Source of the DNA: Xylographa opegraphella
Taxonomy: Eukaryota
DNA length: 64,000 nt
Direction of reading: 5' to 3'
Assembly (NCBI GenBank): GCA_022813865.1
Contig: JALDZX010000011.1
Location: 62,001-126,000, forward strand
In this document: positions 14,552 to 31,994 of the stretch, one piece after another
How positions within the stretch are numbered: the first letter of the stretch is position 1
Layout: each line of letters opens with the position of its first letter
Notes under the pieces: generated by a model
What the model saw: only the letters and a program-made list of their open reading frames with translations
Told to the model about the DNA's origin: nothing
The model's database searches: none
Position numbers and translations under genes: made by a program

Positions 14552-17500
14552 ATGGCTTTGACGTCGGTGAGAGTGTATCCTCAATTGGTAGGAGAGCAGC
14601 CTAGCTAATAATCATAGTGGAAGATATTTAACTTCTTCGATGTCAGCCAAGTGAAGCCCCCGGACGACACTGAGCAATTATCCATCTTCGATGTAAGCTA
14701 CACGTCCTGCATCCGAGACCACTGCTAATACTGCAAGAGTACTGAGATCAGTTGTGTGTGCTCGGGTTCGGAAAGTGTTTTTGTTGGCAGCAATGATGGC
14801 TACGTCCGCATACTGTCATCGACATTCAAGGTCGTCAAAAAGTTCCACGCTTATCAAACCGGCTCCATCACCCACATGAAGCAGGTCAATGGAACGGCAC
14901 TTTTGGTCACGATAGCTGAAGATTTGTTGAATGATCCGGTATTGAAGGTCTGGGCTTTGGACAAGCTCGACAAAAAGGGGGTGGGCCTTTTATCTACTCT
15001 GGGCATTCAAAATGGACGGAAGCAATTTCCTGTATGTGCAAGCTGTGATATGAAGTACTGATAGAGGCTGAGAGACATAGATTTCTGCCTTCGCAGCGCT
15101 GGAAGATCTTTCCCAGCTGGCCATTGGTTTCGCCAATGGTGCCGTGACGGTGGTCAGAGGGGATCTCATCCATGACCGAGGCGCAAAACAGCGGACGGTC
15201 TTCGAATCCGAGGAGCCTATCACTGGGGTCGCATTTCGTGAGGGCCCCATCACAACCTTATACTTGTCGACCACGGGAAGGATACTCACTCTCACAATAA
15301 GTGGAAAGGGTCAAGGACAGCCAGCGAAGCCTATAGCAGACGTCGGTTGTGGAGTTGATTGTATGACCGTCGAGGAAAGTAGTGGGGAGATCATTGTGGT
15401 TCGGGATGATTCTATATACTACTACGGAGCCAACGGTCGAGGGCCGTCCTTCGCGTACGAAGGACCGAAACAGCTTGTGAAGACATTCAACCAATATGTG
15501 GCTGTAGCATCGCCTCCGCAGGCATCTTTGCCCAGTAGTAACAGCGCACTTCGCGCATTTGGTGGCGGTCGTGCAGATGAGATATTCAACCCGTCTAGCT
15601 TCGCTTTGATAGACACTGACTTGAAGTACGTCGCCCACACTGAAACACTAACATCGCAAGTTCGAGCTGTCTTTGTAGAATGGAGGGATTTATTTCTTTT
15701 GACATCGGATGGCAAGGTCTGTCATGATTCTTCTCAGTCAACGTACACGAGCTGACGACTTAGCTCTTTCGCTACCATGAGAAACCCATACAGCAAAAGC
15801 TTGATATACTCTATCAGCGCAATCTATTTGTACTGGCAATAAATCTTGCACAGAAAGCCAATCTCGATGTCACGCAACGAAATATTATCCTTCGAAGATA
15901 TGGTGACTACCTTTACCAGAAGGGAGACTACGACACCGCTATGCAGCAATATCTGAAAGCTATTGACAACACAGAGCCTTCTCAGGTCATTCGAAAGGTA
16001 CACGAGGCCTTTACTTGTACAAAGCTCCTGAATGCTGAGGAGTAATCTTTAGTTTCTTGACACACAACGAATACACAACCTCATCGAATATTTAGAAGAG
16101 CTACATGAACATGACAAGGCAACGGTTGACCATACGACTTTATTGTTAAACTGTTACGCGAAACTCAAAGACACCGAAAAGTTGGAAACTTTCATCAAGT
16201 CGGGCAACAATTTTGATTTCGAGACCGCAATTACTATGTGTCGGCAGGGTGGATACCACGATCAAGCGGTTTTCCTCGCGAAAAAGCATGGCGAGCATGA
16301 TCTCGTGGTCGATATTTTGATGGAAGATTCCAAGAGATATGACGACGCACTGGAGTACATCTGGAGACAAGAGCCTGCTCTTGCGTATTCCAATCTGATG
16401 AAATATGCCAGAGTGCTTCTGGAGCATTGTTCAGGCAATGCTACCCACCTTTTTATAGACTATTATACAGGAGAGTATCGACCGAAGAAAGACTTCGTGA
16501 ATCAAGCTGCTCCTTCAATTCCCAGTGGAACGACGAGTGCACTTCCAAGTCTCTCCTCCTTCATCCCTTTAGCATACAGACCCAATATAGCATCTCCAGC
16601 AACATTAGGAAATCAGCCGGCTGATCTTAGCAATGCGGAATCTGCAGAAGCCGACGCTGCAGAACCTCCTCCTCAGTACGATATACCTAAGCCAAGGACG
16701 GCTTTTTCTGCTTTCGTGGATCATCGAGAGCAATTTATCACGTTCCTTGAGTCCTGTGTCAAGCAAGACCATGTCGAGCAAAATGACAGAGTCGATTTGT
16801 ATACGGCCCTGTTTGAGATGTATTTAGAAACTGCGAGCCACGAAAAGGATGATAATAAACACGAGTGGGAAGCGAAAGCTAGAAGGTTGATTGACGACCC
16901 AAATGTAAGCTATCGGGAGCCCAACACTACGATTTACACTTACCACAGCACAGGTCCCGATTGACGCTTCGAACGTTCTCCTCCTTTCGCATCTCTCCGA
17001 CTTCCGTGATGGCACGATCCTCGTGCGCGAGCAACAAGGCCTTCGATTCGATATATTCCGATCATACACCTCCGCCAGTGATACCGCCGGTGCAATCAAG
17101 GCACTGAGAAAATACGGACCGGAAGACCCACAGCTCTACCCGGCTGCGCTGGCATATTTCACATCGAGTCCCAAAATCCTGCAGGAAGCCGGAGACGAAC
17201 TCGATGCGGTCCTTAAGAAAATCAACGACGACGGTCTGATGGCTCCCTTACAAGTCATCCAGACCCTCAGCACCAACGCCGTCGCCACGATGGGCATGGT
17301 CAAGAAATACCTCAGCGACACCATCGAGCGTGAACGGCGCGAGATCTCCAACGTACCATTCCTCCCCCCCCCTCCTCTCCTCCGCTTTCCCTCACCTCCC
17401 CTCACCCACTAACCCCCACCCTCGCAGAACCGACGCCTCATCTCCAGCTACCGCACCGAAACCGCGACGAAGCGCCAAGAGTTCGACGACCTCGGCACCA

Positions 17501-17808
17501 AGCCCGTCGTGTTCCAAACCCGCCGCTGCGCCTCCTGCGGCGGCAGCCTCGACCTGCCCACGGTGCACTTCCTCTGCAAACACTCCTTCCACCAGCGCTG
17601 CCTCAATCAGACGCCCGGTGGCGACGGCTACGGCGAGTGCCCCGTGTGCGAGAAGCAGAACGCCACCATCCGCGCCATCCGCCGGGCGCAGGAGGACGCG
17701 GCCGAGAGGCATGATCTGTTCCAGGACGCGCTGCGCAGGAGTCGGGATCGCTTCGGCACGGTGGCGGAGTTTTTTGGGCGGGGCGTTATGGGTGTTGGGG
17801 GGGAGTAG
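14552..17808 (+). CDS. VPS11: Vacuolar protein sorting protein Vps11/Pep5 (HOPS/CORVET subunit)
   Basis: Spliced start MALTS|WKIFNFFDV. Contains YGDYLYQKGDYDTAMQQYLKAIDNTEPSQVIRK|FLDTQRIHNL and a C-terminal RING (CASCGGSLDLPTVHFLCKHSFHQRC...CPVC). Multiple GT-AG introns. Confidence 0.95.
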
Positions 17809-19083: not shown

Positions 19084-22000
19084 TTACGTCAGATTTGTGA
19101 TATCGATAAACGCATTCTGCGCCGCCTCCTTCAGCTGCGTCAGCGCCTCCAGTATACCTAAAATCGTTTCCTCCCGCTGTCCCGTGGCACCCTCCCTCGC
19201 GGTGTCCCACGCCGCAATGAGGATGTTGATGCGCCGCTCGACCCACGCGGCGACGTTGTTCTGTATTTGGGGAATAAACACGCTGCGGAGATACTCGTCC
19301 CACATCTCCGGCAGGTTGGCAAGCGGCTGTGCGCCATTTGGGACGTTTGCATTATAGCGGTCTTGAAAGTGAGCCAGGGCATCACGGATGCCGTTCGCGG
19401 AGGATTTCCACGCCGTGTGTAGGTCCGGACGGTTCATGTAATCGAAGATGTCGATGACGTCCCGGATTACACTCGCGGCTCGAATACCTGTTGCGGTATC
19501 GGTGGTATCGTCGAGATTCTGCGCCTGCCACCTGTCGTCGCCAATGGGGTCATTGCCGCGGATGATTTGCATTTTGAGATTGTTCCAGTGAGGTTGCGTG
19601 TTGACCATGTGGCCGGCGTTGTTTGTGTCGCCATAAGCTCGCCAGACATCGTCGACAGGGGTCTCGTCAGCGGTGTCCGTCTGACCAGCTGGATCCCAAG
19701 CAGACCACCTTGTAACATACCGACCACCAGTAGCAAAGACACCGGGATCGATTACCGGGTGAGTGGTGTGGTAGGTGTGACCGTTCTGCAATGGGACATT
19801 TGCGCCCATGACGAATTCCAGGAATCGTGGATGAGTCTGCAACTCAAGGATATGCTCAGCAGCGGGAGTAAGCCCGGGCGGTATAACTGCATTTGGATTC
19901 CAGGTACGATCCACGCAATCGGCATTGTTCAAGTCGTAATAGCCTGCGTTGGGATTGTGCTGTAGGAGCTCACGGCCTCCCGTCCAATATGTGTGGCTGA
20001 AAATAGTAACAATGATTTGCAGATTAAAGTAAACATTAAATTCTCTCTCACCCCCGGTACGCTTCTCAAGTATCACCAGGCCTTCCAAACTTCGTCTTGG
20101 CGGAGCAAGTGGTTCGCTTCCGTCGTCCGGGTCGTTAAATTTGGGGTCGATATTCCCTAAATCAGACATAGGAGGGCAAGTAATATTGGCAGGTTGTGAC
20201 TTGGAACACTGAATGTATTCGCGGCTTCCGAAGATTGCAAATCCGCTCTCTTTCGGTGGATCCCGTCCAGGTGGGGTTGAGGATTCTGTATGAATCGTCT
20301 GGGGGTTAAAGGGAGGACCGGTAGCAAATGTATCGGTGCTGGCCCAGTCTGCTATACTGCCATTCATAGTCACATCTGCTGATGCTTGTTGGTCGCCATC
20401 ATAGACCGTCAATTGTGAACTGCCAGTGTTCGCAATACGAATCGTGTGAGGTATCCTTGCATTGAGTGATGCGCCGCCATTCAGAACTGACGTGTCATAC
20501 TGAAATACTTCCATTGATAGCGAATTCTCGAGAAGTAGCTCCAAGGCAAAAACAGTACCATCTTTAGTTGCAGCAGCTTGTGTTGTGTCGACCACGACGT
20601 CGCCAGTAAATGGATTGTTTGGGATATTGCCTGCAGCACCTCCGTGGAAATCTCCAACCGACAGCGGCTGGTTTACCTGAAAAGTGGCCTGGTTGCCTTG
20701 TTGGAAATCAACAGTGAAGTCCCTACTTTTGTCAGTTTACATACGTCCGTACGTATGGTGTGCCGGTACTTGCCCGTCTATCTGTCCAGATCCAAGTAGC
20801 CTTGCCTCAATATTCATTGTCGGTGAGAAGGATATGATGCCCGGATGACTGAACTCATATGCTGTTATAGGACTCGAGAATATTGGTAACCGTGGGTTAC
20901 CACCATCAATGTTAAGTACCCCTTTTCCATTGAAAGACAGAGTACCGGCGAGCTTGGGATTGCTGTCAAAATAGCTATATGCTTCTTCAAGTTTCAGTGC
21001 CGGCGCGATCGTGCCGACCATAGTAACTCCCCATTTGATAGTGCTTCTTACTTGCCCAGATAATTTTAGCTGCAGGAATCCATCTTGACTGCTTGAGCAA
21101 TTATTGCGTGATCCATCGTTATCATATAAAACAATGTCAAAATTCTGATTTTCAATGACCGCAGTAAAATGCTGATCAGCCATGACTCGCAGATTCCGGA
21201 TCACTGCCATGTCATCTGTCAGTTTTGTGGAAAAACTGCTCAGTGTAATACTTACGGTTCTGCCAAATACTCAAAGTGCCACTCCAGAACCTCGATATTA
21301 GTGTTCGTTTTTGATGATCTGCGGCCACGACTTGATTGTAGTAATCATGCGAGTCTGAGTAGTCTACTCGTAGGTATATGTCACCTGAATCGCGCTTGGC
21401 CAATGCAAAGTCGTAGCCGTAGTCTAAGTCATATACGATAGCATCCGAAGGGGCACGCTTCTTCAGATGATCTGGTAAGAACTGGTCCAATGAAGGAATG
21501 ACTGAATGTGCAACGGCATATGTAGCGAATCCGCAGTCCTCCGGCATCCGCATAATTGTCCCCGTCAGACCTCCAATGTGCATGTAATTACAGTTTGAAC
21601 TTTCAGAGCTATCCATACACAAAAATTTGGCGGTACCGCCGTCGTTGCCGCGTTCCTGGTCGCATGACAAAAATTCGATACGAGAGCCATCTCGCTTGTT
21701 AAGATTCGTGACTGCGTCTTGGGGTCCATCAATGACCACGAGGCCAAACACCTGAGGATTGGAATCTCCAACAAGGGAAGAGCCTGATGCGATCGTCTGC
21801 ATATCAAAGACCGGAATGTCCAAAACGGGTGGGAGGGTTGGAAAGAGCTTGTCGAGTGATACTGGCAGGAAGGGATTTAAATTCTTAGGCGTATTGCAGC
21901 AATATGGCTTCTGCCGGCCCCACCAGCAAGCCTGCCCCGTTGCGCCTTGCGGATCGAGCGTGAGCTCGATATCGGTGCTATGCATATTAGGAGACAGCTT

Positions 22001-24405
22001 GATAGAGACGAGGCCGAGTAAACTCACTTAGAACATTCGTTATCGTCACAGGTTCCCTGGCCAACCCAATGACACGCTTGAAAGTTATATCCACAACAGA
22101 ATTGTGATTTTTTCCAGCTGAGTCCGCAACCAACTTTTTGGAGTCAGTAAAATATAAAGATGAATAGGAGTTCAAGCTTTCTACTCACCATCACCAGGGC
22201 AATCAGAGACATAGACGTCCTTATACGTAAGATCGTATGGTTTATCCGCCGGACATGAAACATCAGGCGGTTGCCATTCACAAGTCTTGATCAAGTCCGC
22301 CCAGGTATTTGTTTCACAGCAAAATGCTTGCATGCCAGGTTTCAGACATTTAGTCGAACCATCTGGTGAGTGGAATAGCGTGACCTCGCCGGGATGACAC
22401 TGCCCATGGCATGATCCACTACCTCTCCAAGTACAAGATGTTGGCATTGCGTCAATGGGACAATAAATCTGGACAGTTATGAGCAACGGCTGTACAAATA
22501 GCAGACTCGAGTGCTTACGTATCTATTTTGAGAGCCACCGCAGGTATCTTTGAAATAGGCGCCGCCAGGAGCCATTGCATAACCTGGGGGTCCCTGCGCA
22601 TTATCTAGACAGTCAGTCATTATACATTTCTGCCAATTCTGTGACGCCCAATTTCCCGCGTCTGTCACTTGAGTCTTTTAGAGTTCCTCGTTGAATGAAG
22701 GGAGGCTTTTGCCAACGAGTCCAGTGAGGGCAGAGAAATCGTTGTCATCTAAATCGACGGCCCAAATCATGACGCCTCCGAGTCCAATATTGTTAGCCCA
22801 GTCCACCTTTTGCTTGAATGTCTTTGAGTCGTCGTAACTGACCCACTGATCATTGTCAGAACCGTATTGGAAATAATTGACGGCAGCATCTTGATCATGC
22901 TGAATGTCCGGTTTCTGAGCACTGATGATGTCCATGATCTCAAAATAGCCTAAAGTTCCTGCAGAAGCTGTACAAGGTCCGGCTTCGGCGGCTCCTTTGA
23001 ACAAGCAGCCCGGCTTACTACAACCAGAATCGGCAAGTTGAAATGATCGCCCATAGAAGCCTAAACCAAGCACGACCTTGGCGGGAGCAATTCCAACTCT
23101 CCAGAGCAAATCGATAGATAACTGGATCTCTGTCAAATTTGTATGTCCCTGGACGATGCTACCAATCGGGTTGTTCCGGTCCCATACACCATGCAGATCA
23201 TAACTCATCAAGTTGATCCAGTCGGCGTACTTCGCCATTGATGGTAGATCATACCACCGTAGATACCAGTAAGAGCTAGGAATAGTAAAGGAAATACCGT
23301 ATGAACCTCGCTCTGATCGTGAGAACGTATCTCTCAAGGTTTGAAGAAGCTTCACGTAGTTTTCGGTATCGTCGGTGGTGCCGCCACGATCAGGAGCACC
23401 AGGATATCTACCGCTGGTTAACGACCGCTCCCTATCAACTTCGTAAGGTGACAGGCATACTCCCAATCAATATCAATGCCATCAAACCCATATTGTTTCA
23501 TGAATGAAACAAGGTTGTCAGCAAAGGTCTGACGTTTGCCGGCATCTGCTGCGATAGAGGGGAATACGCCTTGGGTAGATGACCCGTTATCCGAAAAGGA
23601 CCATCCACCTACCGAAATGAAGACTTCCAACGCTGCATTGCCGGATTTCATGTTGCGAACATCAGTAGTCTGCGTAAACAAGTCTTCAGGAGTACTTGAA
23701 TCCATGGGGGTAATCTTCAAGCTGTTAGGGTCAATAGAGGCAAATGCAAAGTTAACATGCGTGAGACCATCGACTGGAAGTGCACTCGGGGGAAAGGCAT
23801 GGCAAGATCTTTGAGTAGACCAGCTCTCATAGTACCCGATTACTTTGTTAAGAACCGAAGACGAGCTCGCGCCCGCTGGGACTGGCGGATTGACAACGCA
23901 GTTGCTCTGACAGCTGCCCGTACAGAAATCGGAAGTGGACCCACAAAATCCATACTGGCTACAGCAGGTGTTCAATGGACATGTTTTTCCTGGGGGGTCG
24001 GCCCACGAGCCACCTGCAAGGCTATTTAGATGGTACTCTCAACGGTGGCATAGACTCACACTCGGCTCGTGCATCACATTGACTATCACAGTCTGCTCCA
24101 CACCAGGTCGGCCCCAGACCGCACTCCCCAGTATCTCCACCATCAAATCCTCCACAGCAAGCGTACTGCTTGCAAGGAGTACCTTTCTTACAAGAATACT
24201 CATCACGCCGAAAAATTGTCAAATTGGCGTCATCGATGATACGTGTAAGGGAAGATGACTTCTCTAATGCGGTTGCTGGATGAAGTTGCGTATCCTTCTT
24301 CCCAATCAAGCCAATAGAGCCAGAAGGAGAAAATGAGAAAATGGACCAAAGTAAGGCGAGGGCTAGCGGTATAAGGAAGGTCCTTGACCACCCACAAGAC
24401 CACAT
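19084..24405 (-). CDS. Subgroup C (killer-toxin-like) GH18 chitinase with two N-terminal chitin-binding (CBM18/hevein-like) modules and a long C-terminal extension; one in-frame stop at 22678-22680
   Basis: Exons 24405-24060, 24013-23461, 23407-22519, 22468-22189, 22133-22028, 21977-21256, 21203-20774 and 20722-19084 total 4965 nt in frame. Hydrophobic N-terminus, CPLNTCCSQYGFCG hevein motif, SVGGW, intact catalytic FDGIDIDWE|YPG, MSYDLHG, GLGGVMIWAVDLDD. An alternative ATG lies at 24435. Confidence 0.92.
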
Positions 24406-25448
24406 GGTACTAAGATTCGACAGGGGTACCGCCATTACTGTGGTGGTCACAACAACGCTTGGAATTTACCTATGAGCAACTGTAGACCTTAGGGCAAGAG
24501 GAGCAAAACAGAATGAAAAAAAGTAGATAGAGCACTGTAAAGGATGGGAACATAAGCAGAAAGGGATTTTCAGAGATAGCAATTGAGCTCCGAGCATGCT
24601 GAGCTGATATAGCAAGTTAAGATTACTTGATAGAGAACAGAGCCCCAGTATGTAGGACCAAGCATAGTAGATCCTCTAGTAGTCTACACAACTATGTCGA
24701 GGTCAGCCGCGGCGAGAAGAACGGACGAGCATCCTGCCATGCCTCCTGCCGAAGGATGAAGGCATAGTGCTTGGGACAAGCGGAATGCTGTATCATCATC
24801 AGCTTCACCGCATACGCCATAAGATGCGGTCTTTCTCGTCCAGCTCAGTGGCGGTGAAAAGTCCATAGGAAGCGATGGTAGAACGCTCTGATCTAGCGGC
24901 CAGGAAAGTGGAGATTGCATCATCTCGCTCCGCCGACAGTTGTAAGCGCTAACAGGATCTATCTTCAGGCGCATCAATACCTGAGCAGAAACATTTCAGA
25001 CCAATGCTTCTACATGGCTGGCCAGAAAGTCAGCCGTTGAATGTGCTGATGCCACTGGCCTGGAGTTTACCGCCGATGCGGTCAGGTCCAGACCGTGAAA
25101 CGATCAGCCTCGCAGGATTTGGATGGATTGTCTTTGCCTCAACCGACTGTATCAATCGTGCTGACCACCATCTGACAAGAGAGAGCTGAAGCAGTGCAGA
25201 TTTTATATTCATTCTCCACAATGCTCATGACCCTTCTGGCCACTTTCCCATCTTGTGGTCGTTTCGCTGTTGTCCCTGTTTGCTGGGTGTATAATGTTCA
25301 GTGCTTCTTCTCGTCTGTATTGCCATTGCATATCTCTCACATGCTATGCTGCTGATATCTGGGCTCGAAAGGTATTGTACGGCCCATTTTCACACATTGG
25401 CATTGACAAATATCGTGACCTTGCCCTACAATGTTTCTTGGGAAAGGC

Positions 25449-27806
25449 ATGAGTCTACGAGCAGTGTGGACGGCATTTATCTTCTCCGGCAGAGCATGGT
25501 CCCAGATCTTCGGTGACGGTTCGAACGGAGTGCCTCCGATTGTCTATGCTCCGCCGGCGGGCCTATCAACTGCGTGTAACGCAACATTTGCGACTCCAAT
25601 TCAATGCTCCCCGATTCTACCCATGATTGCCTGGCAAGGCTACTTTCCATCGGTCGACGATCTCCGTATTTTGTGCAATACCACTTGCTTACAGTCTATG
25701 GGGAGTTTTCGCAACAACCAGCTGGCCTCGTGCGGATCTGATGTGGAGATAGTTGCCGGGTCAACTTATCCGGCAACTTACAATGTCGACTACTTTATTT
25801 TTACGTACAACTACACTTGCCGGACTGATAGGTATCTTGGTCTTCCATAATTTCCTACGGTTCGAAGCTGAGTCTTCCAGAATCACAAATGCATGGTGTG
25901 CTCCACAGGTCGATTTGTGGGGCAACGATGCATCACCATCCGCAAACGAAACTTGTTCCGATTGTGTCTTGGGTACACTTCAGACGGAACTCAACTCCCC
26001 TTTCGGCTACGATGCAGATCTGGCCACAAACTTCACTTCTATGACATCTGCGTAAGCTTCTGGCTTTTCTTTTCTAATCTCATGTACTTCTTCCCTGTCT
26101 GGGACAGAGAGGCCCAGGAGTGTTCTATCACAGCCTAACCAATCAACTTTAGATGTCAAGCCTCGAGTTATCCGATTACATCGCCAGCTTCATATACAGC
26201 CTCTGGTACTGTAACCTCCACCACAGCGGCTGTGACACCCAGCTGCTCCATTTCGTATACAGTCCAGGCTGGTGACAACTGCAATACCATCAGTATTGCA
26301 CAAAACGTGTCAACATTTGATCTCTTGTACGAAAATGGCCTCGAAGGGTACTGCTCAAACTTTCCCGGCGCGGGAAAGAAATTATGTCTTCCGGATCAGT
26401 GCCATATTTACACGGTACAAACCAACGATACCTGTTACGGCATTACGCAGACGAACAACAATGCCTTTTCTATCTCACAATTGGTCTCTTGGAATCCAAA
26501 CCTCAATCGAGACTGCTCGAACATCAATCAGCTTGTTGGCTTGCAGATCTGCGTTTCCTTTCCTGGCACATCAGGTGGCGCATCCGTTTCAACTCCGTCC
26601 ACCACGTTCGCGCCGGTGCCACCGAATCTCGCGGTAGGCACGAACACCAACTGTTCGCGATACTATAACGTGTCAACCGGCGATTATTGTTCGTACATTA
26701 CAATACAGGAGGGTATTTCACTGCCCGACTTTTACTTCCTAAACCCCGAAATTAACTCGACGAATTGCAATAACTTACTTCTTGGTGAAAGCTATTGCGT
26801 AGCTCCTATTGGCACCATTTCGACTTATCCAGGATATGGGTATGTCAGCCTGGCAGTGCCAAATTCCCTTGCTAACTCCAACGATAGTGGTTTATCGGCT
26901 ACAGGTGCTCCAGACCCCTGCACAGGCATTTCAGCCGCATCAAGCTGCTTCGCGACGACATATATGACAGGCTCCGCTTGGGCATGGCCTACGAAACTGG
27001 CAACTACAACCGCAACAGCTGGTGCTGGGCTGCTACCGCTTGCTGCAGGGACCTTGAGCAATTGCACCACGTACGATCAATACTATACTTCCACATCGGA
27101 CAACAGCACAACCTACAACATCAATAGTTGTTACGCTGTTGCTCGATTTCGTGGCGCGACAACCGATCAGCTCGTAGCCTGGAACCCGTCCTTGAACTTC
27201 GACAGCAATAACCCAGACGCATGCGTCCTCGTCCCGGGCTTTCGATATTGCGTCTCTACGGCCGGAACGATGGCTATGACAACGACAACAGCCCCCATGG
27301 CCACATCGTCTCTGGCTACAATTATTCCTTCGCCCACAACCACTCCAACAGCTCCGACGGGCACCTGCTCGGGCGGCGTTGCAACCCCAGAGCAAACCCA
27401 AAGCGGCGAGCCATGCTGGTGCCAGAAATGGGTGGGGCAGGTCGATGGCCAATATTGTGCCGACATGGCTGCCGCTGCCGGCATCACCCTCGCTCAGCTG
27501 TACACCTTAAACCCACCGCTCAACAACGACTGTTCAGGCCTTTACAAAGGCTACGCATACTGCGTAGCACCGGTGCCTGTGGATCCGGCCTGTGCGGAGG
27601 GAACCTGGCCCCCGGGACCAGTCCAGGCGGGCATCTCATGCAAATGCGATAGTTGGGTCATGCAGCAGAGCGGTACGTACTGCGCAGACATGGCAGCAAC
27701 GGCAGGGATATCTTTGCAGCAACTATATAGTTTGAATTCGGCGCTGAATGGCGATTGTAGCGGGTTGTTTGTAGGGTATGCCTATTGTGTGGGGCTTGCT
27801 CCGTAG
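25449..27806 (+). CDS. Secreted LysM (CBM50) protein with an N-terminal Cys-rich domain and six LysM modules
   Basis: Likely signal peptide MSLRAVWTAFIFSGRAWS. Introns at 25832-25880, 26052-26152 and probably 26840-26887. Fungal LysM motifs such as YTVQAGDNC, QLVSWNPNLNRDC, FYFLNPEIN..C..L..G.SYCV. Divergent from the chitinase. Confidence 0.92.
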
Positions 27807-28156
27807 CTTTGGCTTAGAAAATCGGGGAAACAGTGTGTAGAAATAATAAAGCTGCCGCCTTCAGTATACTTAGCACACGGGTAGATCACCATTCAAATCG
27901 AAGTGCCCTTGAAAGTAGTCCGATTTTGAAACATTTGATTACGGCAGTCACATAGAAACCGCAACAGAGGACTTGGCATTCCTTTACCAGGCACAACACA
28001 GCCTCATCCTTCTGGCTGTAACCACGCCCAGCGACCTTGTCCCTCATCACGCTGCACGACCCACAATCTTCTCTCCCCACACCTTCACCCCATTGCTTCT
28101 TCTCATACCTTCTTCTCCCCATAATCCATTCCCCACCCTCCAACACCACCATCAGA

Positions 28157-29116
28157 ATGACATCCCCCCCGCCCCCCTTCCCCCTGGTGCCTCTCTGCAA
28201 CCAAACCCTCACCGCCCCCTCCAGCCTCACCCCCACCGAGCGCGCCCTCCTCAAAGGGCGCCCCTCCCCCGCCGACGAAGACATCCTCTACCGAAACGCA
28301 ACAACCCTCCCGCTCTCCGCCCTCGTGGCCAAAGCCCTCGCCACGCCCCCCACCCTCACCCCGCACGAAGCCCACATCCTCGTCCACGGCCCCGCGCCCC
28401 GCACCCCCGCGGAGAAAGCCAGCCGGCTACAACGCTACCTCGCGCTGACGCCCACGCAGCGGCAGCTACTGGACCGCGCCAGCGACGCCGTGGCCGACAA
28501 GGAGGAGAAGCGCGCGCGCAACGTCGCGTATCGGGTGCTGCAGGCACTGCAGGCAGAAGCGTCCACGTCCCCCGCACCGGCCCGCGCCCCGCTCGTCTTC
28601 CCGTGGGAGCGCACCGACTGGGTCTCCCTCGTCCGCGAACAGGACTACGCGGCTTGGGGCTTCCCCGTGCTGCGCACGGCGTACTGCGACCCCGCAGCCT
28701 GGCTCGCCTTCCGCGCCCGCTTCTCCGCCCTCGCGGCGCGGGAGATGCAGCGGCTCGCGCCCGCGGTCGCGGACCGGTTCCGCGTGCCCTACGTCGAGGA
28801 CGAGGAGGCTCTCGCGGGCGCGGAGCGTGAGGGCTTGCTGGCTTACTACACCCGGCTGCGGGCGGAGGGGAAGCTAGCGGGGGGTTTTGACTGGGGGGTG
28901 TTTGGGAGCGTGGATGAGAAGGTGCTGGAGGAGTGTGGGGCTGAGGAGGGGGAGTGGGTCGTGCCGGTGTGGGATGCGGAGTGGAAGGAGGGGGGTGGGT
29001 GGGTGCGTGGGGTGGGTGTTCAGGCTGGGTTGGTGTTTGCGGTGCTGCTGCCGAAGGTGGTGAGGGGGGAGAAGGGGGCGTTGGAGAGTTTGGCGATGTT
29101 GGGGGTGGATCGGTAG
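28157..29116 (+). CDS. Uncharacterised intronless cytoplasmic protein (~319 aa) with a WGFxxxRTxY...W..F motif
   Basis: GC-rich ORF with strong codon bias. WGFPVLRTAYCDPAAWLAFRARF...YVEDEEALAGA resembles a pattern I recall from uncharacterised fungal proteins. No signal peptide or transmembrane segment. Confidence 0.75.
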   Translation: MTSPPPPFPLVPLCNQTLTAPSSLTPTERALLKGRPSPADEDILYRNATTLPLSALVAKALATPPTLTPHEAHILVHGPAPRTPAEKASRLQRYLALTPTQRQLLDRASDAVADKEEKRARNVAYRVLQALQAEASTSPAPARAPLVFPWERTDWVSLVREQDYAAWGFPVLRTAYCDPAAWLAFRARFSALAAREMQRLAPAVADRFRVPYVEDEEALAGAEREGLLAYYTRLRAEGKLAGGFDWGVFGSVDEKVLEECGAEEGEWVVPVWDAEWKEGGGWVRGVGVQAGLVFAVLLPKVVRGEKGALESLAMLGVDR

Positions 29117-29644
29117 AGGTGGGCGGGCTGGATTGGGGGTTGTGCTGGGAAGAGATTCGACACATGGGGGTTTGGTGGTCATCAGCTACTCTCGGACTCG
29201 TCTTTGCGGGAATTGCACGCGAGTGGCTGGGGGGAGGCATGTACTTCGGCCTCGATTCCTGCCTTATGGAAGATGAAACATGAGAATTGGAAACCTGCAT
29301 CTCGAGATTTACTCGTCCGGACAAACCGTCGTTCGGTCCCAGATGGTGGAGCTCAACACTATTGCCTCAAGGCAGACAGCCTCAACAATTCGCCCGTCCA
29401 TGTATAGTCAATAGTTGAGCAGGAGAGGCGTGGCACTCCCCACCACGCAGCAAAACATCACCTTCAACCAATAAATATTGAATCTCCATATCGGCCTTTT
29501 CGTTCCATGATTATACGAACGAAGCGGACGCTGCATCCGGTCAAATAAGTATAAATTGACAGGTCAAAACTCGAGTATATGAAATTGCCTCAGTTGTTCT
29601 TACCGCCCAATACTGAATTGTACCCCCACACAACTACTCGTGTA

Positions 29645-31994
29645 TCATACTAGGATGAAAACAGCATCACCGAACATCTTGCCTCCATCACCATGCCATT
29701 GCGTACAGCGTTTCCAGTCAAAATTCTCCCGACTTACCTTTGCTTCATGTCCACTGTTACCCTCGCTATTCTGAACAAGCTCCCGGCAAGCTTCCTCCGT
29801 ACTCATCAGAAACACGCTTCCAGTTGGAGACATGAAAACGCCCACTCTCCGAAAGATGTTGCCCGCAGCAGTACCCGCCACCCGCTCCACCAGAAGCCCA
29901 TATACTAGTGTGCGTTCATCCAGAGTGGATCGTGGCAGTGACACTGACACAGACACCGGCACACAGAAAATCTGCTTTCTGACCTCATCGTCTGCAGGCA
30001 GCGCTTTCTGAATATCTTCGAATACGGAGACGTGGATCAGCGTCTGGCCGGCCATCAGGAGCTGATAGCTTAACAAAGGCCCGGAGGATTCCATGGTCTC
30101 CTTCTCGACGAGGTGCGCTTCCAGCATGCGGCCGCGGATGATCAAGCTTCCGCTTACGACTTGGCCCATTGCGTCGTTGTGGGCCGCCGGTGTAACATGA
30201 GCAGCCAAAATGTCAATGAGGAAATCGCGCTGCTTGCGTTCCCCACCCCAGTCCCATTGGATGACCGTTTTCAGCGGTCCGTCGGTAGCGGCCCAGGACC
30301 AAGACGGAGCGCGGTAGGGTATGGATTGATGACCTACAGTGCCAGAATTCTTCCGTCCTATTGGACTACGAGCAGTCACCCAGAGCAACTGTCGGGGGAG
30401 CTGAGCCTCCCATAGGCCGGCCAGGTAGCGGCTGTTCATGAGCGGGTGCAGCTCGCGTGCAATACCGGAGATTGCAACGAGTTTGTCAGTGCTACGCGAG
30501 AGAGCGCCGGAGGTATAGGCGGCTACAACGCGGTCCCATACGTGGAAGGCAGTAGTAGTAGTTCCGGACCAACGAAGCATGCTGGCGGAGGGGTCCACCG
30601 GCTGCAGTGCGGGATCGAAGGGATGTAGGGATTTGTATGGATGTCCTGTAAGGACGTTTGGAAAGCCGTTGGGGAAGGTCTCGCAGGCTTCGAGCGCACG
30701 GCATTCCCAGTAAAGTTGTTTGAACCCAAAATGGAGGACCCGAGGGGCAAGAACACGCTGTATGAAAGTTGTTCAGTGGAATTCTACGTGTGGGAGAGCT
30801 GGAACGAACATACTTCTTGAACAACCCAGCCTCGCGAATTCAACGGCGCGTCTTCTACACCATTCTTCCACAGCTCAAGGTCCAGAAAAGTGTGAACATC
30901 GGAATAGGTCGTCTGAGGCTCAGGATACTTTGCTCTTTGGAAGCGATTTCGCGTTGTTCGACGAACTTTCTCTTTTTGAACGGCTTCGGGGAATTGCAGT
31001 ACCAGTGGTTCAATCAACGCCGGGATTCTTTTCGAGAAGAAGCCCCTTCGGCCATCCCATACTCCAGTCGCTGCGATATTACAGTAGCTGTACTTATAGA
31101 CTTTGCCCATCAAGGCTGCCTCTCGATTCCAATCCTCCGGAGAATCCTGAAGGATACAGAGCGAATCTATCCAAACATACCTGATACCTAATCGACGAGT
31201 CACTTCTATGGCGTCCAGAAACGTCTGTGTAAGTTTTTCAGGGGGCACCCGGTTCTTCAGGCTCTCGAAGTTTTTGGTCGTCAGTTTGAAGATCTCCAAC
31301 TTGCCCCAGCAATGGGACAAGGATACATACAAAGAGCCAGAGGGTATATCTGCTGATTCACACAGCCGCAATAGATCACCACAAACGAGATCACCAACAT
31401 CAATGAGCCGAGATGGGCGCCATTCCTGAACAGTCTCTGTAGATGAACTCTCTCCACATTGATGGTTCTGCAGACAGTTACTGAGCCAATGAGATGCAAG
31501 GCGTAGAGTATTCTCCGAGGATGTACTCTCTTGAACTGGCGACCGAGCACTCGAATGTTGTTGTACAAGATCCGAGTTGGTAGTGGGTTCATCTGAGAAC
31601 ATGAGGCTCAAAGCACCCTACCAAAGGGAGAAACGACATAGGGTAGACTACCAAGCAAACCATTGTAAGGCGCAGTATTAAAATGCCACTTCGCATTCCG
31701 CCACGAAAACCTGAAAATATAACACCCCACTGGAGGGAAAGGCTCAATGTATCCAACGATCACGTCACTTCCCCAACACGCATCTAAATCACTGCCTTCT
31801 GCAGATAATGCAGCTTGTTGCTGGGCAGAAAGCCCGGCCCAAACACGAGCGCAGAGATGACAGCCGGACAAGGCTGCGTGGCGAAAGGCCAGCCCGTTCT
31901 CGTGATGGTTGAAATAGGGCATGTAGGCATCCTTGGATTCCCGGATCTGATAGCCACCAGGCTTGAAGATGGCATCACAGGCAGGACAGAGCAT
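29645..31994 (-). CDS. Stand-alone HET (heterokaryon incompatibility) domain protein
   Basis: MLCPAC...CHLC N-terminus, then PSRLIDVG, YVSLSHCWG, YVWIDSLCILQD, MGKVY, LNSRGWVVQE|RVLAPRVLHF, DKLVAISG, YLAGLW, APSWSWA. Three exons; the first intron donor is uncertain. Confidence 0.9.

What the first reader, a model, noticed from the sequence alone, without database searches (positions are those of the whole stretch)
19084..20058. Post-KR C-terminal domain with an HNH/His-Me-finger-like signature (EHILELQ...HMVN...WNNLK)
Seen: after a Pro/Asp-rich linker and LEKR, a 324-aa, nearly Cys-free domain begins. It contains EHILELQ (19857-19837), then about 90 aa later GHMVNTQPHWNNLK, then a helical tail. 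It looks more GC-rich by eye than the upstream exons. Inference: the xHxxELQ...N..K pattern recalls HNH/EndoVII-fold nuclease toxin tips, so this may be a released nuclease effector acquired by domain swapping.
Basis: inference. Interest (0 to 1): 0.8.

Follow-up and report, generated by a model that had tools for sequence, protein, structure and literature searches.

The report
Cleavable tail domain of killer-type chitinase
The last 324 amino acids of a large secreted fungal chitinase form a conserved, enzyme-like module that is probably cut off after secretion and may be a nucleic-acid-cutting toxin, but its shape could not be compared with known structures here.

Summary
On the minus strand, 19084-20058 encodes a 324-aa domain with one Cys, directly after LEKR. 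It contains EHILELQ and GHMVNTQPHWNNLK, ends in a helical tail, and has higher GC3 than the upstream exons. The window is from the lichen fungus Xylographa opegraphella. The domain is the C-terminal module of one long secreted chitinase gene (signal-like N-terminus, CBM18, GH18, no LysM). That gene is colinear with 1432-1537-aa chitinases of Trichoderma and Hypocrella.

The module is a family: 99 representatives, all named ones Pezizomycotina, no Pfam model. A Kex2-type site (L-x-[K/R/P]-R) precedes it in 28 of 44 rows, against 1.3% background. E68, H69, E72, N153, N159 and K162 are conserved, K162 in 72 of 72.

AlphaFold2 gives a confident model (pLDDT 96.6): strand ending in E-H, about 80-aa insert, strand, helix carrying N159/K162, then a four-helix bundle. 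This matches the [D/E]H...N...N constellation of Vvn/GmrD-type His-Me nucleases. Language-model neighbours are all His-Me families. Pfam, PDB and HMM-HMM comparisons are not significant, and the fold search never ran.

Verdict: a released enzymatic effector module, nuclease plausible (about 0.4). Recent domain swapping is not supported.

The parts
19084..20058 (-). C-terminal domain, 324 aa plus stop codon (19084-19086); protein P0002
   Evidence: Translation. 21 close homologues and 99 representatives. AlphaFold2 with a 72-row alignment gives pLDDT 96.6 and pTM 0.92.
20059..20070 (-). LEKR, a putative Kex2-type processing site directly before the domain
   Evidence: L-x-[K/R/P]-R lies in the last 8 residues before conserved G2 in 28 of 44 rows (17 of 31 distant rows), against 1.3% of 8-residue windows elsewhere in the same proteins.
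20092..20097 (-). Second dibasic site (RR; KR in relatives), 11 residues upstream of LEKR
   Evidence: PPRRSLEGLVILEKR; relatives have PPKRSLEGLVTLEKR.
20098..20175 (-). Pro/Asp-rich linker (PPMSDLGNIDPKFNDPDDGSEPLAPP)
19837..19857 (-). EHILELQ (residues 68-74). E68-H69 sit at the end of predicted strand 66-69, and E72 follows.
   Evidence: Conservation: E68 55/59 (plus 4 D), H69 56/59, E72 57/59. Strand from the model.
19573..19614 (-). GHMVNTQPHWNNLK (residues 149-162): predicted strand 151-154 with N153, then helix 156-166 with N159 and K162
   Evidence: N153 59/70, N159 67/71, K162 72/72, H150 only 21/67. Secondary structure.
19615..19836 (-). Residues 75-148 between the two motif blocks (conserved W121, P134, G143, N147). 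If the fold is a His-Me finger, this would be its omega-loop.
19117..19497 (-). Four long helices (residues 188-314) with conserved R199, Y207, N209, E255, W272, W284
20176..22030 (-). Middle region of the same gene. It has no known domain and includes two short introns. The in-frame TAA at 20737-20739 lies in a 48-nt intron of the NCBI model.
   Evidence: No Pfam hit. Colinear with P0031, P0027, P0026 and P0033. Splice signals GTAAGT/GTATGT ... CTGAC ... AG. NCBI model P0024.
22747..23846 (-). GH18 catalytic domain, in two exons (about 23454-23846 and 22747-23379), with DGIDIDWEY
   Evidence: Pfam PF00704, E 4.1e-28 and 8.1e-40. Motif seen.
23898..23993 (-). CBM18 chitin-binding module
   Evidence: Pfam PF00187, E 4.9e-12.
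24403..24435 (-). Candidate start codons (M at 24435-24433 or 24405-24403), followed by a hydrophobic, signal-peptide-like stretch MWSCGWSRTFLIPLALALLWSIFSFS
   Evidence: Judged by eye; no signal-peptide predictor was run.
26139..27806 (+). Neighbouring, divergently oriented LysM-domain protein gene (context only, not part of the domain)
   Evidence: Pfam PF01476, E 1.7e-15.

Best explanation
The 324 residues are the C-terminal module of one long secreted 'killer-toxin-like' chitinase: signal-like N-terminus, CBM18, N-terminal GH18, no LysM, and a middle region of roughly 700 aa with no known domain.

The proposed mechanism has four steps.
1. The precursor enters the secretory pathway.
2. A Kex2-type protease cuts after the conserved L-x-(K/R/P)-R site. 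This frees a compact module of about 36 kDa (estimated from its length).
3. The chitinase part binds and opens the chitin wall of a competing fungus.
4. The freed module acts as the effector.

The most likely chemistry is metal-dependent phosphodiester cleavage by a divergent His-Me-finger (beta-beta-alpha-metal) site. H69 would be the general base, E68 and N159 the metal ligands, and N153 and N147 would hold the strands. An omega-loop of about 80 residues and a four-helix bundle would pack behind the site.

Shown here: the domain boundaries, gene colinearity, family-wide conservation of the site residues and of the cleavage motif, and a confident compact model.

Inferred: cleavage, toxicity, the nuclease chemistry and the fold class.
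For: Gene anatomy:
- GH18 and CBM18 were found by Pfam.
- The whole stretch 23921-19105 is colinear with single proteins P0031 (1537 aa, Hypocrella siamensis chitinase) and P0027 (1432 aa, Trichoderma viride).
- Of 22 longer hits scanned, 7 carry GH18 upstream of the domain and 0 carry LysM.

Release:
- [K/R/P]R lies within 8 residues of the domain start in 32 of 44 rows (20 of 31 distant rows), against a 7.4% background.
- L-x-[K/R/P]-R is present in 28 of 44 rows, against 1.3%.

Enzyme-like constraint: E68 55/59 (plus 4 D), H69 56/59, E72 57/59, G143 66/67, N153 59/70, N159 67/71, K162 72/72.

Fold clues:
- The AlphaFold2 model has pLDDT 96.6 and pTM 0.92. Strand 66-69 ends in E-H, strand 151-154 carries N153, and helix 156-166 carries N159 and K162.
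- In passages read from PMC4619093, Vvn uses E79 and N127 as Mg ligands and H80 as the base. GmrD has D113-H114 ... N169 ... N178, which puts 55 residues between the His and the first Asn.
- The ESM-Atlas nearest named clusters for residues 55-215 are DUF1524, GmrSD_C, AHH, HNH_4 and GH-E. All ten best named hits share a family or clan.
- hhalign of residues 60-185 against a DUF1524 alignment gave score 17.0, above all 150 column-shuffled nulls. It also exceeded two unrelated control families (11.5 and 8.7).

Against a zymocin-type three-subunit design: there is no conserved C-terminal Cys for a disulfide to a separate gamma toxin. No gamma-toxin-like gene was recognised beside the gene.
Against: - No nuclease family model matches any of the 72 members in Pfam, NCBIfam, PADLOC or PHROGs at E<=1.
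- PDB sequence and profile searches give only noise: best E 0.13, 0.29 and 0.12.
- hhalign against DUF1524 is not significant: probability 0.5-1.9%, P 0.026-0.12.
- Only after I masked the insert post hoc did both motif blocks align, and even then probability was only 3-11%, with 2-3 of 150 shuffles reaching the score.
- With the full domain as query, a thioredoxin control scored 16.4, so the noise level is near the signal.
- True His-Me families also failed this test against each other (AHH vs HNH P 0.024; DUF1524 vs AHH P 0.056). The test has little power either way.
- ESM scores of 0.75-0.79 are in the range where shuffled proteins often score.
- The N153-N159 spacing is 6 residues. It is 9 in both GmrD and the Geobacter HNH enzyme (PMC4619093 passages).
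- I never saw the model's coordinates, so pairing of strands 66-69 and 151-154 is not shown.
- Cleavage, secretion and toxicity are untested.
- No RNA data were found.
Confidence: 0.4

Rival explanations
1. The module is a released enzyme, but not a nuclease. One option is a hydrolase or lyase acting on a wall polymer, with E68/E72 as catalytic carboxylates and the conserved Trp/Tyr residues as sugar-stacking platforms. Another is a metallopeptidase-like H-x-x-E site.
For: - It is fused to a chitinase.
- It has many conserved aromatic residues: Y24, W121, W177, Y207, W272, W284.
- It has conserved carboxylates: E68, E72, E255.
- No nuclease family model matches.
- The third whole-domain ESM hit was a bacterial cluster auto-named 'Chitin-binding protein' (score 0.89, 164 shared features).
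Against: - No glycoside-hydrolase, CBM or peptidase model matches the domain either. Only GH18 and GH85 hits appeared, and these were not mapped to a region of the long members.
- The invariant Lys and the two Asn on one helix, together with a [D/E]-His at a strand end, are more typical of phosphodiester chemistry. This rests on passages in PMC4619093.
- All ten best named ESM neighbours of the core are nuclease families.
Confidence: 0.25
2. The module is non-catalytic. It would be the counterpart of the zymocin beta subunit (uptake or docking helper), or a pro-domain or chaperone removed by Kex2. The conserved polar residues would then serve binding or folding.
For: - Its position and size resemble the beta part of the zymocin alpha/beta precursor, which is made by proteolytic processing of a chitinase (10.1101/2024.10.25.620242, sections read).
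- Half of the domain is a helical bundle.
- No enzymatic family matches.
Against: - The terminal Cys that links beta to the gamma toxin is said to be well conserved in cluster chitinases: 29 of 31 beside a toxin gene (same preprint, passage read). It is absent here, and no C-terminal Cys is conserved in the family.
- No toxin or immunity gene was recognised nearby.
- Near-invariant E-H, E, N, N and K across proteins only 21-35% identical are unusual for a pro-domain.
- A paralogous family that has lost exactly H69, N153 and N159 suggests these residues are a functional unit.
Confidence: 0.2
3. One reading: a canonical HNH tip that uses the His of 'HMVN' and was recently acquired by domain swapping, as shown by its higher GC content.
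For: GC3 is 0.623 in the domain against 0.395-0.535 upstream.
Against: - H150 is His in only 21 of 67 rows.
- The architecture is colinear in Sordariomycetes homologues at 31-56% identity. The domain is found in Lecanoromycetes, Sordariomycetes, Eurotiomycetes, Leotiomycetes and Dothideomycetes, so the fusion is old.
- GC3 varies as much within the neighbouring VPS11 gene: 0.457-0.871.
Confidence: 0.05

Closest known systems
Zymocin alpha/beta precursor and subgroup C-II 'killer toxin-like' chitinases with neighbouring gamma-toxin genes (Heneghan, Salzberg & Wolfe, bioRxiv 10.1101/2024.10.25.620242; mBio mGem PMC13556262)
   Same: A secreted multidomain GH18 chitinase with a chitin-binding module, and a C-terminal part separated by a basic processing site. 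There is a LysM-only gene next door. The presumed role is antagonism between fungi.
   Different: - This chitinase has no LysM domain, and GH18 sits near the N-terminus.
- It has no conserved terminal Cys for a disulfide to a gamma subunit.
- No toxin or immunity gene was recognised nearby.
- The C-terminal module itself carries an enzyme-like conserved site.
- That preprint reports no clusters in Lecanoromycetes: the word does not occur in its text.
- Homology of this module to the yeast beta region was not tested, because no yeast sequence was reachable.
Second architecture type of subgroup C chitinases (N-terminal GH18, CBM18, no CBM50), e.g. Metarhizium ChiMaC4. Described in PMC4169460 (passages read), which credits Gruber et al. 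C-I clade, e.g. Histoplasma Cts6 (PMC8042737, passages read)
   Same: Domain order, size class (over 120 kDa) and absence of LysM.
   Different: The passages I read in those papers describe only the GH18 and CBM parts. None of them mention the C-terminal module, its cleavage site or its conserved residues. Placement of this GH18 domain in clade C-I by phylogeny was not done here.
His-Me finger nucleases with a [D/E]-His ... Asn ... Asn site and a large omega-loop: Vvn/endonuclease I and DUF1524 (GmrD) (PMC4619093, PMC5714182; passages read)
   Same: An acidic residue followed by His at the end of a strand, an Asn on the next strand, an Asn on the following helix, a long insert between the strands, and a helical domain packed behind.
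   Different: - There is no significant sequence or profile similarity.
- The insert is about 80 residues.
- The Asn-Asn spacing is 6, not 9.
- There is an extra invariant Lys (K162) and a second Glu (E72).
- The proteins are eukaryotic, secreted and chitinase-fused.
- The word 'chitinase' does not occur in the 2017 superfamily classification.
Bacterial polymorphic toxins with C-terminal HNH/AHH/GH-E nuclease tips
   Same: A large secreted carrier protein with a small C-terminal effector that may be released. ESM neighbours include AHH and GH-E clusters.
   Different: There is no evidence of tip polymorphism: every homologue found carries the same module. No adjacent immunity gene was seen. 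Release would be by a Golgi Kex2-type protease. That AHH, GH-E and HNH are tips of polymorphic toxins is partly recalled and partly taken from the table in PMC5714182.

Membership tests
His-Me finger (HNH / beta-beta-alpha-metal) nuclease superfamily | beta-beta-alpha-metal fold: two antiparallel strands followed by a helix | tested here: inconclusive
   The model's secondary structure has strand 66-69, strand 151-154 and helix 156-166 in the right order. Coordinates were not visible. One fold search was accepted and then failed.
His-Me finger (HNH / beta-beta-alpha-metal) nuclease superfamily | Catalytic His at the C-terminal end of strand 1, often preceded by Asp or Glu | tested here: met
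   H69 is His in 56/59 rows. Residue 68 is E in 55 and D in 4 of 59. Both lie at the end of predicted strand 66-69.
His-Me finger (HNH / beta-beta-alpha-metal) nuclease superfamily | Asn or His metal ligand on the core helix, and a structural Asn before it | tested here: met
   N159 is N in 67/71 rows and H in the other 4, and lies on helix 156-166. N153 (59/70) lies on strand 151-154. Their role as ligands is inferred, not shown.
His-Me finger (HNH / beta-beta-alpha-metal) nuclease superfamily | Significant match to a family model or a solved member | tested here: not met
   - Pfam, NCBIfam, PADLOC and PHROGs: no nuclease family in any of 72 members at E<=1.
- PDB: nothing.
- hhalign against DUF1524 gave P 0.026 and probability 1.9%; AHH gave P 0.35; HNH gave P 0.26.
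   H150 is His in 21/67 rows.
DUF1524 / GmrSD_C (PF07510) | Match to the Pfam model | tested here: not met
   There was no hit in any of 72 members. hhalign against 35 DUF1524 segments was not significant. With the insert masked, the EH and N blocks align in register at probability 3-11%. This is a lead only.
Subgroup C (type 2 / C-I) killer-toxin-like GH18 chitinase | GH18 domain with the DxxDxDxE motif | tested here: met
   PF00704 at E 8.1e-40 and 4.1e-28. DGIDIDWEY is present.
Subgroup C (type 2 / C-I) killer-toxin-like GH18 chitinase | CBM18 present, no CBM50/LysM, GH18 near the N-terminus, high molecular mass | tested here: met
   PF00187 at E 4.9e-12. No LysM in any of the seven coding pieces. 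The region from 23921 to 19105 is colinear with 1432-1537-aa proteins.
Subgroup C (type 2 / C-I) killer-toxin-like GH18 chitinase | Placement of the GH18 domain inside clade C-I in a phylogeny | not tested
   No reference C-I or C-II sequences were fetched.
Zymocin-type alpha/beta precursor | Basic (Kex-type) processing site between the chitinase and the C-terminal part | tested here: met
   LEKR at 20059-20070. The motif is conserved in 28/44 rows against a 1.3% background. Actual cleavage was not tested.
Zymocin-type alpha/beta precursor | Cys near the C-terminus for the disulfide to the gamma toxin | tested here: not met
   The only Cys of the domain is C48. No conserved Cys lies in the last 60 residues across the family.
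Zymocin-type alpha/beta precursor | Neighbouring gamma-toxin and immunity genes | tested here: inconclusive
   The neighbours recognised are VPS11, a LysM protein and a HET-domain protein. Small, fast-evolving toxin genes could be missed, and no toxin or immunity queries were available.
Zymocin-type alpha/beta precursor | Sequence homology of the C-terminal part to the yeast beta subunit | not testable with these tools
   No yeast killer-plasmid protein could be fetched. The last homologue search was lost to a length-window error.

The most novel reading that the evidence does not exclude
Type-2 (C-I-like) killer chitinases of filamentous ascomycetes are single-chain killer toxins. The chitinase would deliver its own Kex2-released C-terminal nuclease, a previously unclassified His-Me-finger family with an omega-loop of about 80 residues, into chitin-walled rivals. 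This would make the separate gamma subunit of zymocin unnecessary. The non-chitinase paralogues, which have precisely lost the catalytic His and the Asn residues (VDRILEPQT ... LHAMK) and carry an extra C-terminal domain, would be the matching intracellular antidotes or decoys.
Probability: 0.15. Interest if true: 0.8.

Novelty: new variant of a known kind. Interest (0 to 1): 0.55.

Why it matters
Subgroup C chitinases are expanded in mycoparasites and have been studied for their antifungal effect. In the papers I could read, their long C-terminal regions are left undescribed. Recent work showed that C-II chitinases work with separately encoded zymocin-like ribonucleases.

If the C-terminal module of the LysM-less type is itself a cleavable nuclease, two things follow:
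- Part of the antifungal effect credited to these chitinases would come from a built-in toxin.
- A new eukaryotic branch of His-Me nucleases would be defined.

The question 'what do C-I killer-like chitinases kill with?' would then be testable with a simple yeast induction assay. Finding the module in a lichen-forming fungus also bears on how lichen mycobionts defend the thallus.

If the module proves not to be a nuclease, it is still a well-defined family without a Pfam model, with a confident structural model and a clear candidate active site.

Tried and rejected
**Fold comparison.** One job was accepted and then failed on the server. The fold class is therefore untested.

**Single-sequence AlphaFold2.** The model was useless (pLDDT 38.7).

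**Third homologue search.** searched only proteins of 2691-5000 aa, because the alignment's longest row set the length window. It found nothing and says nothing.

**Other searches that gave nothing**
- No whole genome is held for the window.
- The A2 profile found 0 matches at E<=0.1 in 401 Pseudomonadota genomes. The tool notes that an empty answer shows nothing.
- The search of earlier findings returned nothing.
- PDB sequence and profile searches gave noise only.

**Complex prediction.** I tested the T. viride chitinase C-terminal domain (P0027, residues 1102-1432) against the T. viride His-less paralogue P0093. The result was 'no answer', score 0.00. It is no evidence either way.

**Sequencing runs.** No RNA holder was listed. 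The only holder is a DNA run that may be the source of the window.

**hhalign against AHH and HNH.** The alignments were small: 4 of 7 and 9 of 30 fetched segments could be extracted by my script. The rest were dropped because the frame was ambiguous or the locus was truncated. Results were P 0.25-0.6. For the controls, 20 of 30 GNAT and 15 of 30 thioredoxin segments were used.

**Readings rejected**
- A prokaryotic reading of the ORFs was rejected: the region is spliced fungal DNA.
- A pseudogene reading of the in-frame TAA at 20737-20739 was rejected, because the stop lies in a canonical 48-nt intron.
- Recent horizontal acquisition inferred from GC content was rejected.

**Literature.** Searches found no paper describing this C-terminal module. 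Supplements of the bioRxiv preprint (its Table S1 and Figure S3) are closed and might list related chitinases.
Full report
**What is at the coordinates**

On the minus strand, a stop-to-stop frame runs from 20736 to 19084 (550 codons). Its last 324 codons (20058-19087, stop at 19084-19086) start TGGEREF. They follow directly after ...DPDDGSEPLAPPRRSLEGLVILEKR.
- EHILELQ is residues 68-74 (19857-19837).
- GHMVNTQPHWNNLK is residues 149-162 (19614-19573).
- There is one Cys (C48).
- GC is 0.546 and GC3 is 0.623. The six upstream coding pieces have GC 0.447-0.497 and GC3 0.395-0.535.

**The gene around it**

The window is fungal. A 933-aa NCBI protein of Xylographa opegraphella (hypothetical protein MMC26_002232, P0024) is 100% identical over the domain.

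Upstream on the same strand, Pfam finds a CBM18 module (E 4.9e-12) and a GH18 domain split over two exons (E 4.1e-28 and 8.1e-40). The catalytic motif DGIDIDWEY is present. No LysM is found in any of the seven coding pieces. The first exon begins with a hydrophobic, signal-peptide-like stretch (by eye).

tblastn shows that single proteins from other fungi cover the whole stretch colinearly:
- P0031, 1537 aa, 'chitinase' of Hypocrella siamensis, covers 23921 to 19105.
- P0027, 1432 aa, Trichoderma viride, covers 23705 to 19120.

So this is most likely one gene of roughly 1500 codons, and the NCBI model, which starts at 21985, probably holds only its C-terminal 933 residues. I did not resolve the splice junctions between 22241 and 21985. 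The in-frame TAA at 20737-20739 sits in a 48-nt intron with GTATGT ... CTGAC ... AG signals. A second intron near 21210-21262 has GTAAGT ... CTGAC ... CAG.

The neighbours are VPS11 downstream, a divergently placed LysM-only protein upstream, and a HET-domain gene further on. The architecture (CBM18, N-terminal GH18, no CBM50, high mass) is the second type of subgroup C chitinase described in PMC4169460 (passages read). It fits what PMC8042737 (passages read) says of clade C-I. I did not build the GH18 tree.

**The module is a family**

A word-indexed search found 21 close relatives (47-87% identical), including one named protein, from the lichen fungus Peltigera leucophlebia. The exhaustive HMMER search of 1.84 billion representatives found 99 proteins at E<=0.001, 39 at <=1e-10 and 10 at <=1e-30.

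Of 22 longer hits scanned with Pfam, 7 have GH18 upstream of the module, 1 has CBM18 and none has LysM. Named members come from Trichoderma, Hypocrella, Fusarium, Gaeumannomyces, Polytolypa, Arthroderma, Coleophoma, Apiospora, Neoarthrinium, Lasiodiplodia and Phaeoacremonium. All are annotated 'hypothetical protein' or 'chitinase'.

No Pfam, NCBIfam, PADLOC or PHROGs model covers the module in any of the 72 aligned members. No PDB sequence is related.

**A conserved cleavage site**

In alignment A2, 44 rows have at least 16 residues upstream of the module.
- In 32 of them (20 of the 31 distant ones), [K/R/P]R lies in the last 8 residues before the conserved Gly2. The background is 7.4% of 8-residue windows in the same proteins.
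- The fuller motif L-x-[K/R/P]-R (LEKR, LDPR, LEPR, LDRR, LQKR ...) is present in 28 of 44 rows (17 of 31 distant), against 1.3%.

Lys-Arg, Arg-Arg and Pro-Arg are the known specificities of the Golgi protease Kex2 (recalled). It is not shown biochemically.

**A conserved polar constellation**

Across rows only 21-35% identical to the query, the following counts were obtained, over rows that cover each column.

| Residue | Count |
|---|---|
| E68 | 55/59 (the other 4 are Asp) |
| H69 | 56/59 |
| E72 | 57/59 |
| G143 | 66/67 |
| N147 | 50/67 |
| N153 | 59/70 |
| N159 | 67/71 (the other 4 are His) |
| K162 | 72/72 |
| W177 | 63/71 |
| Y207 | 60/66 |
| N209 | 57/64 |
| W284 | 54/58 |
| H150 (in 'GHMVN') | 21/67 |

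The family signature is [T/A]-E-H-I-x-E-L-Q ... G-[S/D]-x-x-N ... [L/M]-V-N-x-E-x-x-[L/F]-N-x-x-K.

**Structure**

Without an alignment, AlphaFold2 failed (pLDDT 38.7). With the 72-row alignment it gave a very confident single globule: pLDDT 96.6, pTM 0.92, 312 of 324 residues at 90 or above. Its elements, in order:
- an N-terminal hairpin (6-11, 14-20);
- a strand at 66-69 that ends in E68-H69;
- a helix at 75-83;
- a mostly irregular stretch with short helices;
- a helix at 134-142;
- a strand at 151-154 (M-V-N-T);
- a helix at 156-166 carrying N159 and K162;
- four long helices (188-209, 211-237, 249-290, 293-314).

**Does this make it a His-Me finger?**

The order is what that superfamily shows: a strand ending in [D/E]-His, then a strand, then a helix carrying an Asn.
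- In passages read from PMC4619093, Vvn uses E79 and N127 as Mg ligands and H80 as the base.
- In the same passages, GmrD (DUF1524) has D113-H114 ... N169 ... N178, which is 55 residues between the His and the first Asn.

The ESM Atlas gave DUF1524, GmrSD_C, AHH, HNH_4 and GH-E as the nearest named clusters, at 0.75-0.79. All ten best named hits share a family or clan. The tool warns that such scores are leads only.

I then fetched DUF1524 segments from bacterial genomes (35 segments), plus AHH, HNH and two unrelated controls, and ran hhalign.
- The module core (residues 60-185) against DUF1524 scored 17.0, with P 0.026 and probability 1.9%. That aligns only the strand-2/helix block. The score is above all 150 column-shuffled nulls and above the GNAT (11.5) and thioredoxin (8.7) controls.
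- With the full domain as query, thioredoxin scored 16.4.
- True superfamily pairs did no better: AHH against HNH scored 15.9 and DUF1524 against AHH scored 15.8. Only DUF1524 against HNH reached 45% probability.
- When I masked the insert post hoc, hhalign put vtEHIlEl on tIEHIlPq and lVN.e..lN on ltLL....N in one alignment. Probability was 3-11%, and 2-3 of 150 shuffles reached the score.

Sequence methods therefore cannot decide the question. I have not seen the coordinates, so I cannot say that the two strands pair or that the residues meet.

**Relation to zymocin**

According to the preprint 10.1101/2024.10.25.620242 (introduction, one results section and passages read), zymocin's alpha and beta subunits arise by proteolytic processing of a chitinase precursor. 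The gamma ribonuclease is disulfide-bonded to beta through a Cys near the chitinase C-terminus. C-II chitinases of filamentous fungi sit beside gamma-toxin genes, and 29 of 31 of those keep the terminal Cys.

The module here occupies the beta position behind a processing site, but differs:
- It has no C-terminal Cys, and none is conserved in the family.
- The chitinases that carry it lack LysM.
- No toxin or immunity gene was recognised next to it.

My preferred reading is therefore a single-chain variant in which the cleaved C-terminal module is itself the effector. I could not test whether it is homologous to the yeast beta region.

**On domain swapping**

The GC3 rise is real, but pieces of the neighbouring VPS11 gene span 0.457-0.871. 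The full architecture is shared with Sordariomycetes proteins at 52-56% identity in GH18, 42-44% in the middle and about 31% in the region that includes the module. The module diverges faster than the chitinase, but it was not recently acquired.

**A side observation**

Some weaker hits form a separate paralogous family of 600-700-aa non-chitinase proteins: P0093 (Trichoderma viride/atroviride), P0088, P0113, P0071, P0072, P0076 and P0065. The module core sits near their N-terminus and reads VDRILEPQT ... LHAMKSRLWEG. That is, E68 becomes D, H69 becomes R, N153 is lost, N159 becomes H and K162 is kept. It is followed by another conserved region with no Pfam match. These proteins account for the two H69-to-Arg rows and at least two of the four N159-to-His rows in A2. 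The joint loss of exactly these residues suggests they work together. Whether the paralogues are antidotes is speculation. A complex prediction gave no answer, and no copy lies in this window.

**Verdict**

The module is a conserved, probably Kex2-released, enzyme-like C-terminal domain of LysM-less killer-toxin-like chitinases. I found no description of it in the literature I could search.

| Reading | Probability |
|---|---|
| Divergent His-Me-finger nuclease | about 0.4 |
| Another enzymatic activity | about 0.25 |
| Non-catalytic beta-like or pro-domain | about 0.2 |

Noticed in passing
Proteins P0093, P0088, P0113, P0071, P0072, P0076, P0065 (hits); no copy elsewhere in the window: A paralogous non-chitinase family (600-700 aa, several classes of Pezizomycotina) carries the module core near its N-terminus. 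The putative catalytic residues are replaced (VDRILEPQT, LHAMK). A second conserved C-terminal region follows, with no Pfam match. It could be an inactive decoy or antidote, or a differently functioning relative.
   Followed up: partly
window 21985-24465 (-) versus NCBI model P0024: The public annotation starts a 933-aa 'hypothetical protein' at 21985. Homologues from Trichoderma and Hypocrella are colinear from the GH18 domain through to the stop at 19084. The annotated protein is therefore probably only the C-terminal part of a chitinase of about 1500 aa.
   Followed up: partly
window 25419-27806 (+): A LysM-domain protein gene is divergently placed next to the chitinase. This is the chitinase/LysM gene pairing described for subgroup C chitinases, here beside a chitinase that itself lacks LysM.
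   Followed up: partly
window 27900-29400: GC content rises to 0.63-0.73, and GC skew swings from -0.46 to +0.42. Long overlapping open frames lie on both strands (28037-29116 plus strand, 28356-29324 minus strand) and have no Pfam match. The nature of this region was not examined.
   Followed up: no
window 30784-31611 (-): An open frame with a HET (heterokaryon incompatibility) domain, E 8.5e-30. This is another non-self-conflict gene within 12 kb of the chitinase.
   Followed up: no
window 14729-17808 (+): A VPS11/PEP5 gene whose 3' RING/VPS11_C exon has GC3 0.871, against 0.457-0.511 in earlier exons. This shows strong GC3 variation within a gene in this genome.
   Followed up: partly
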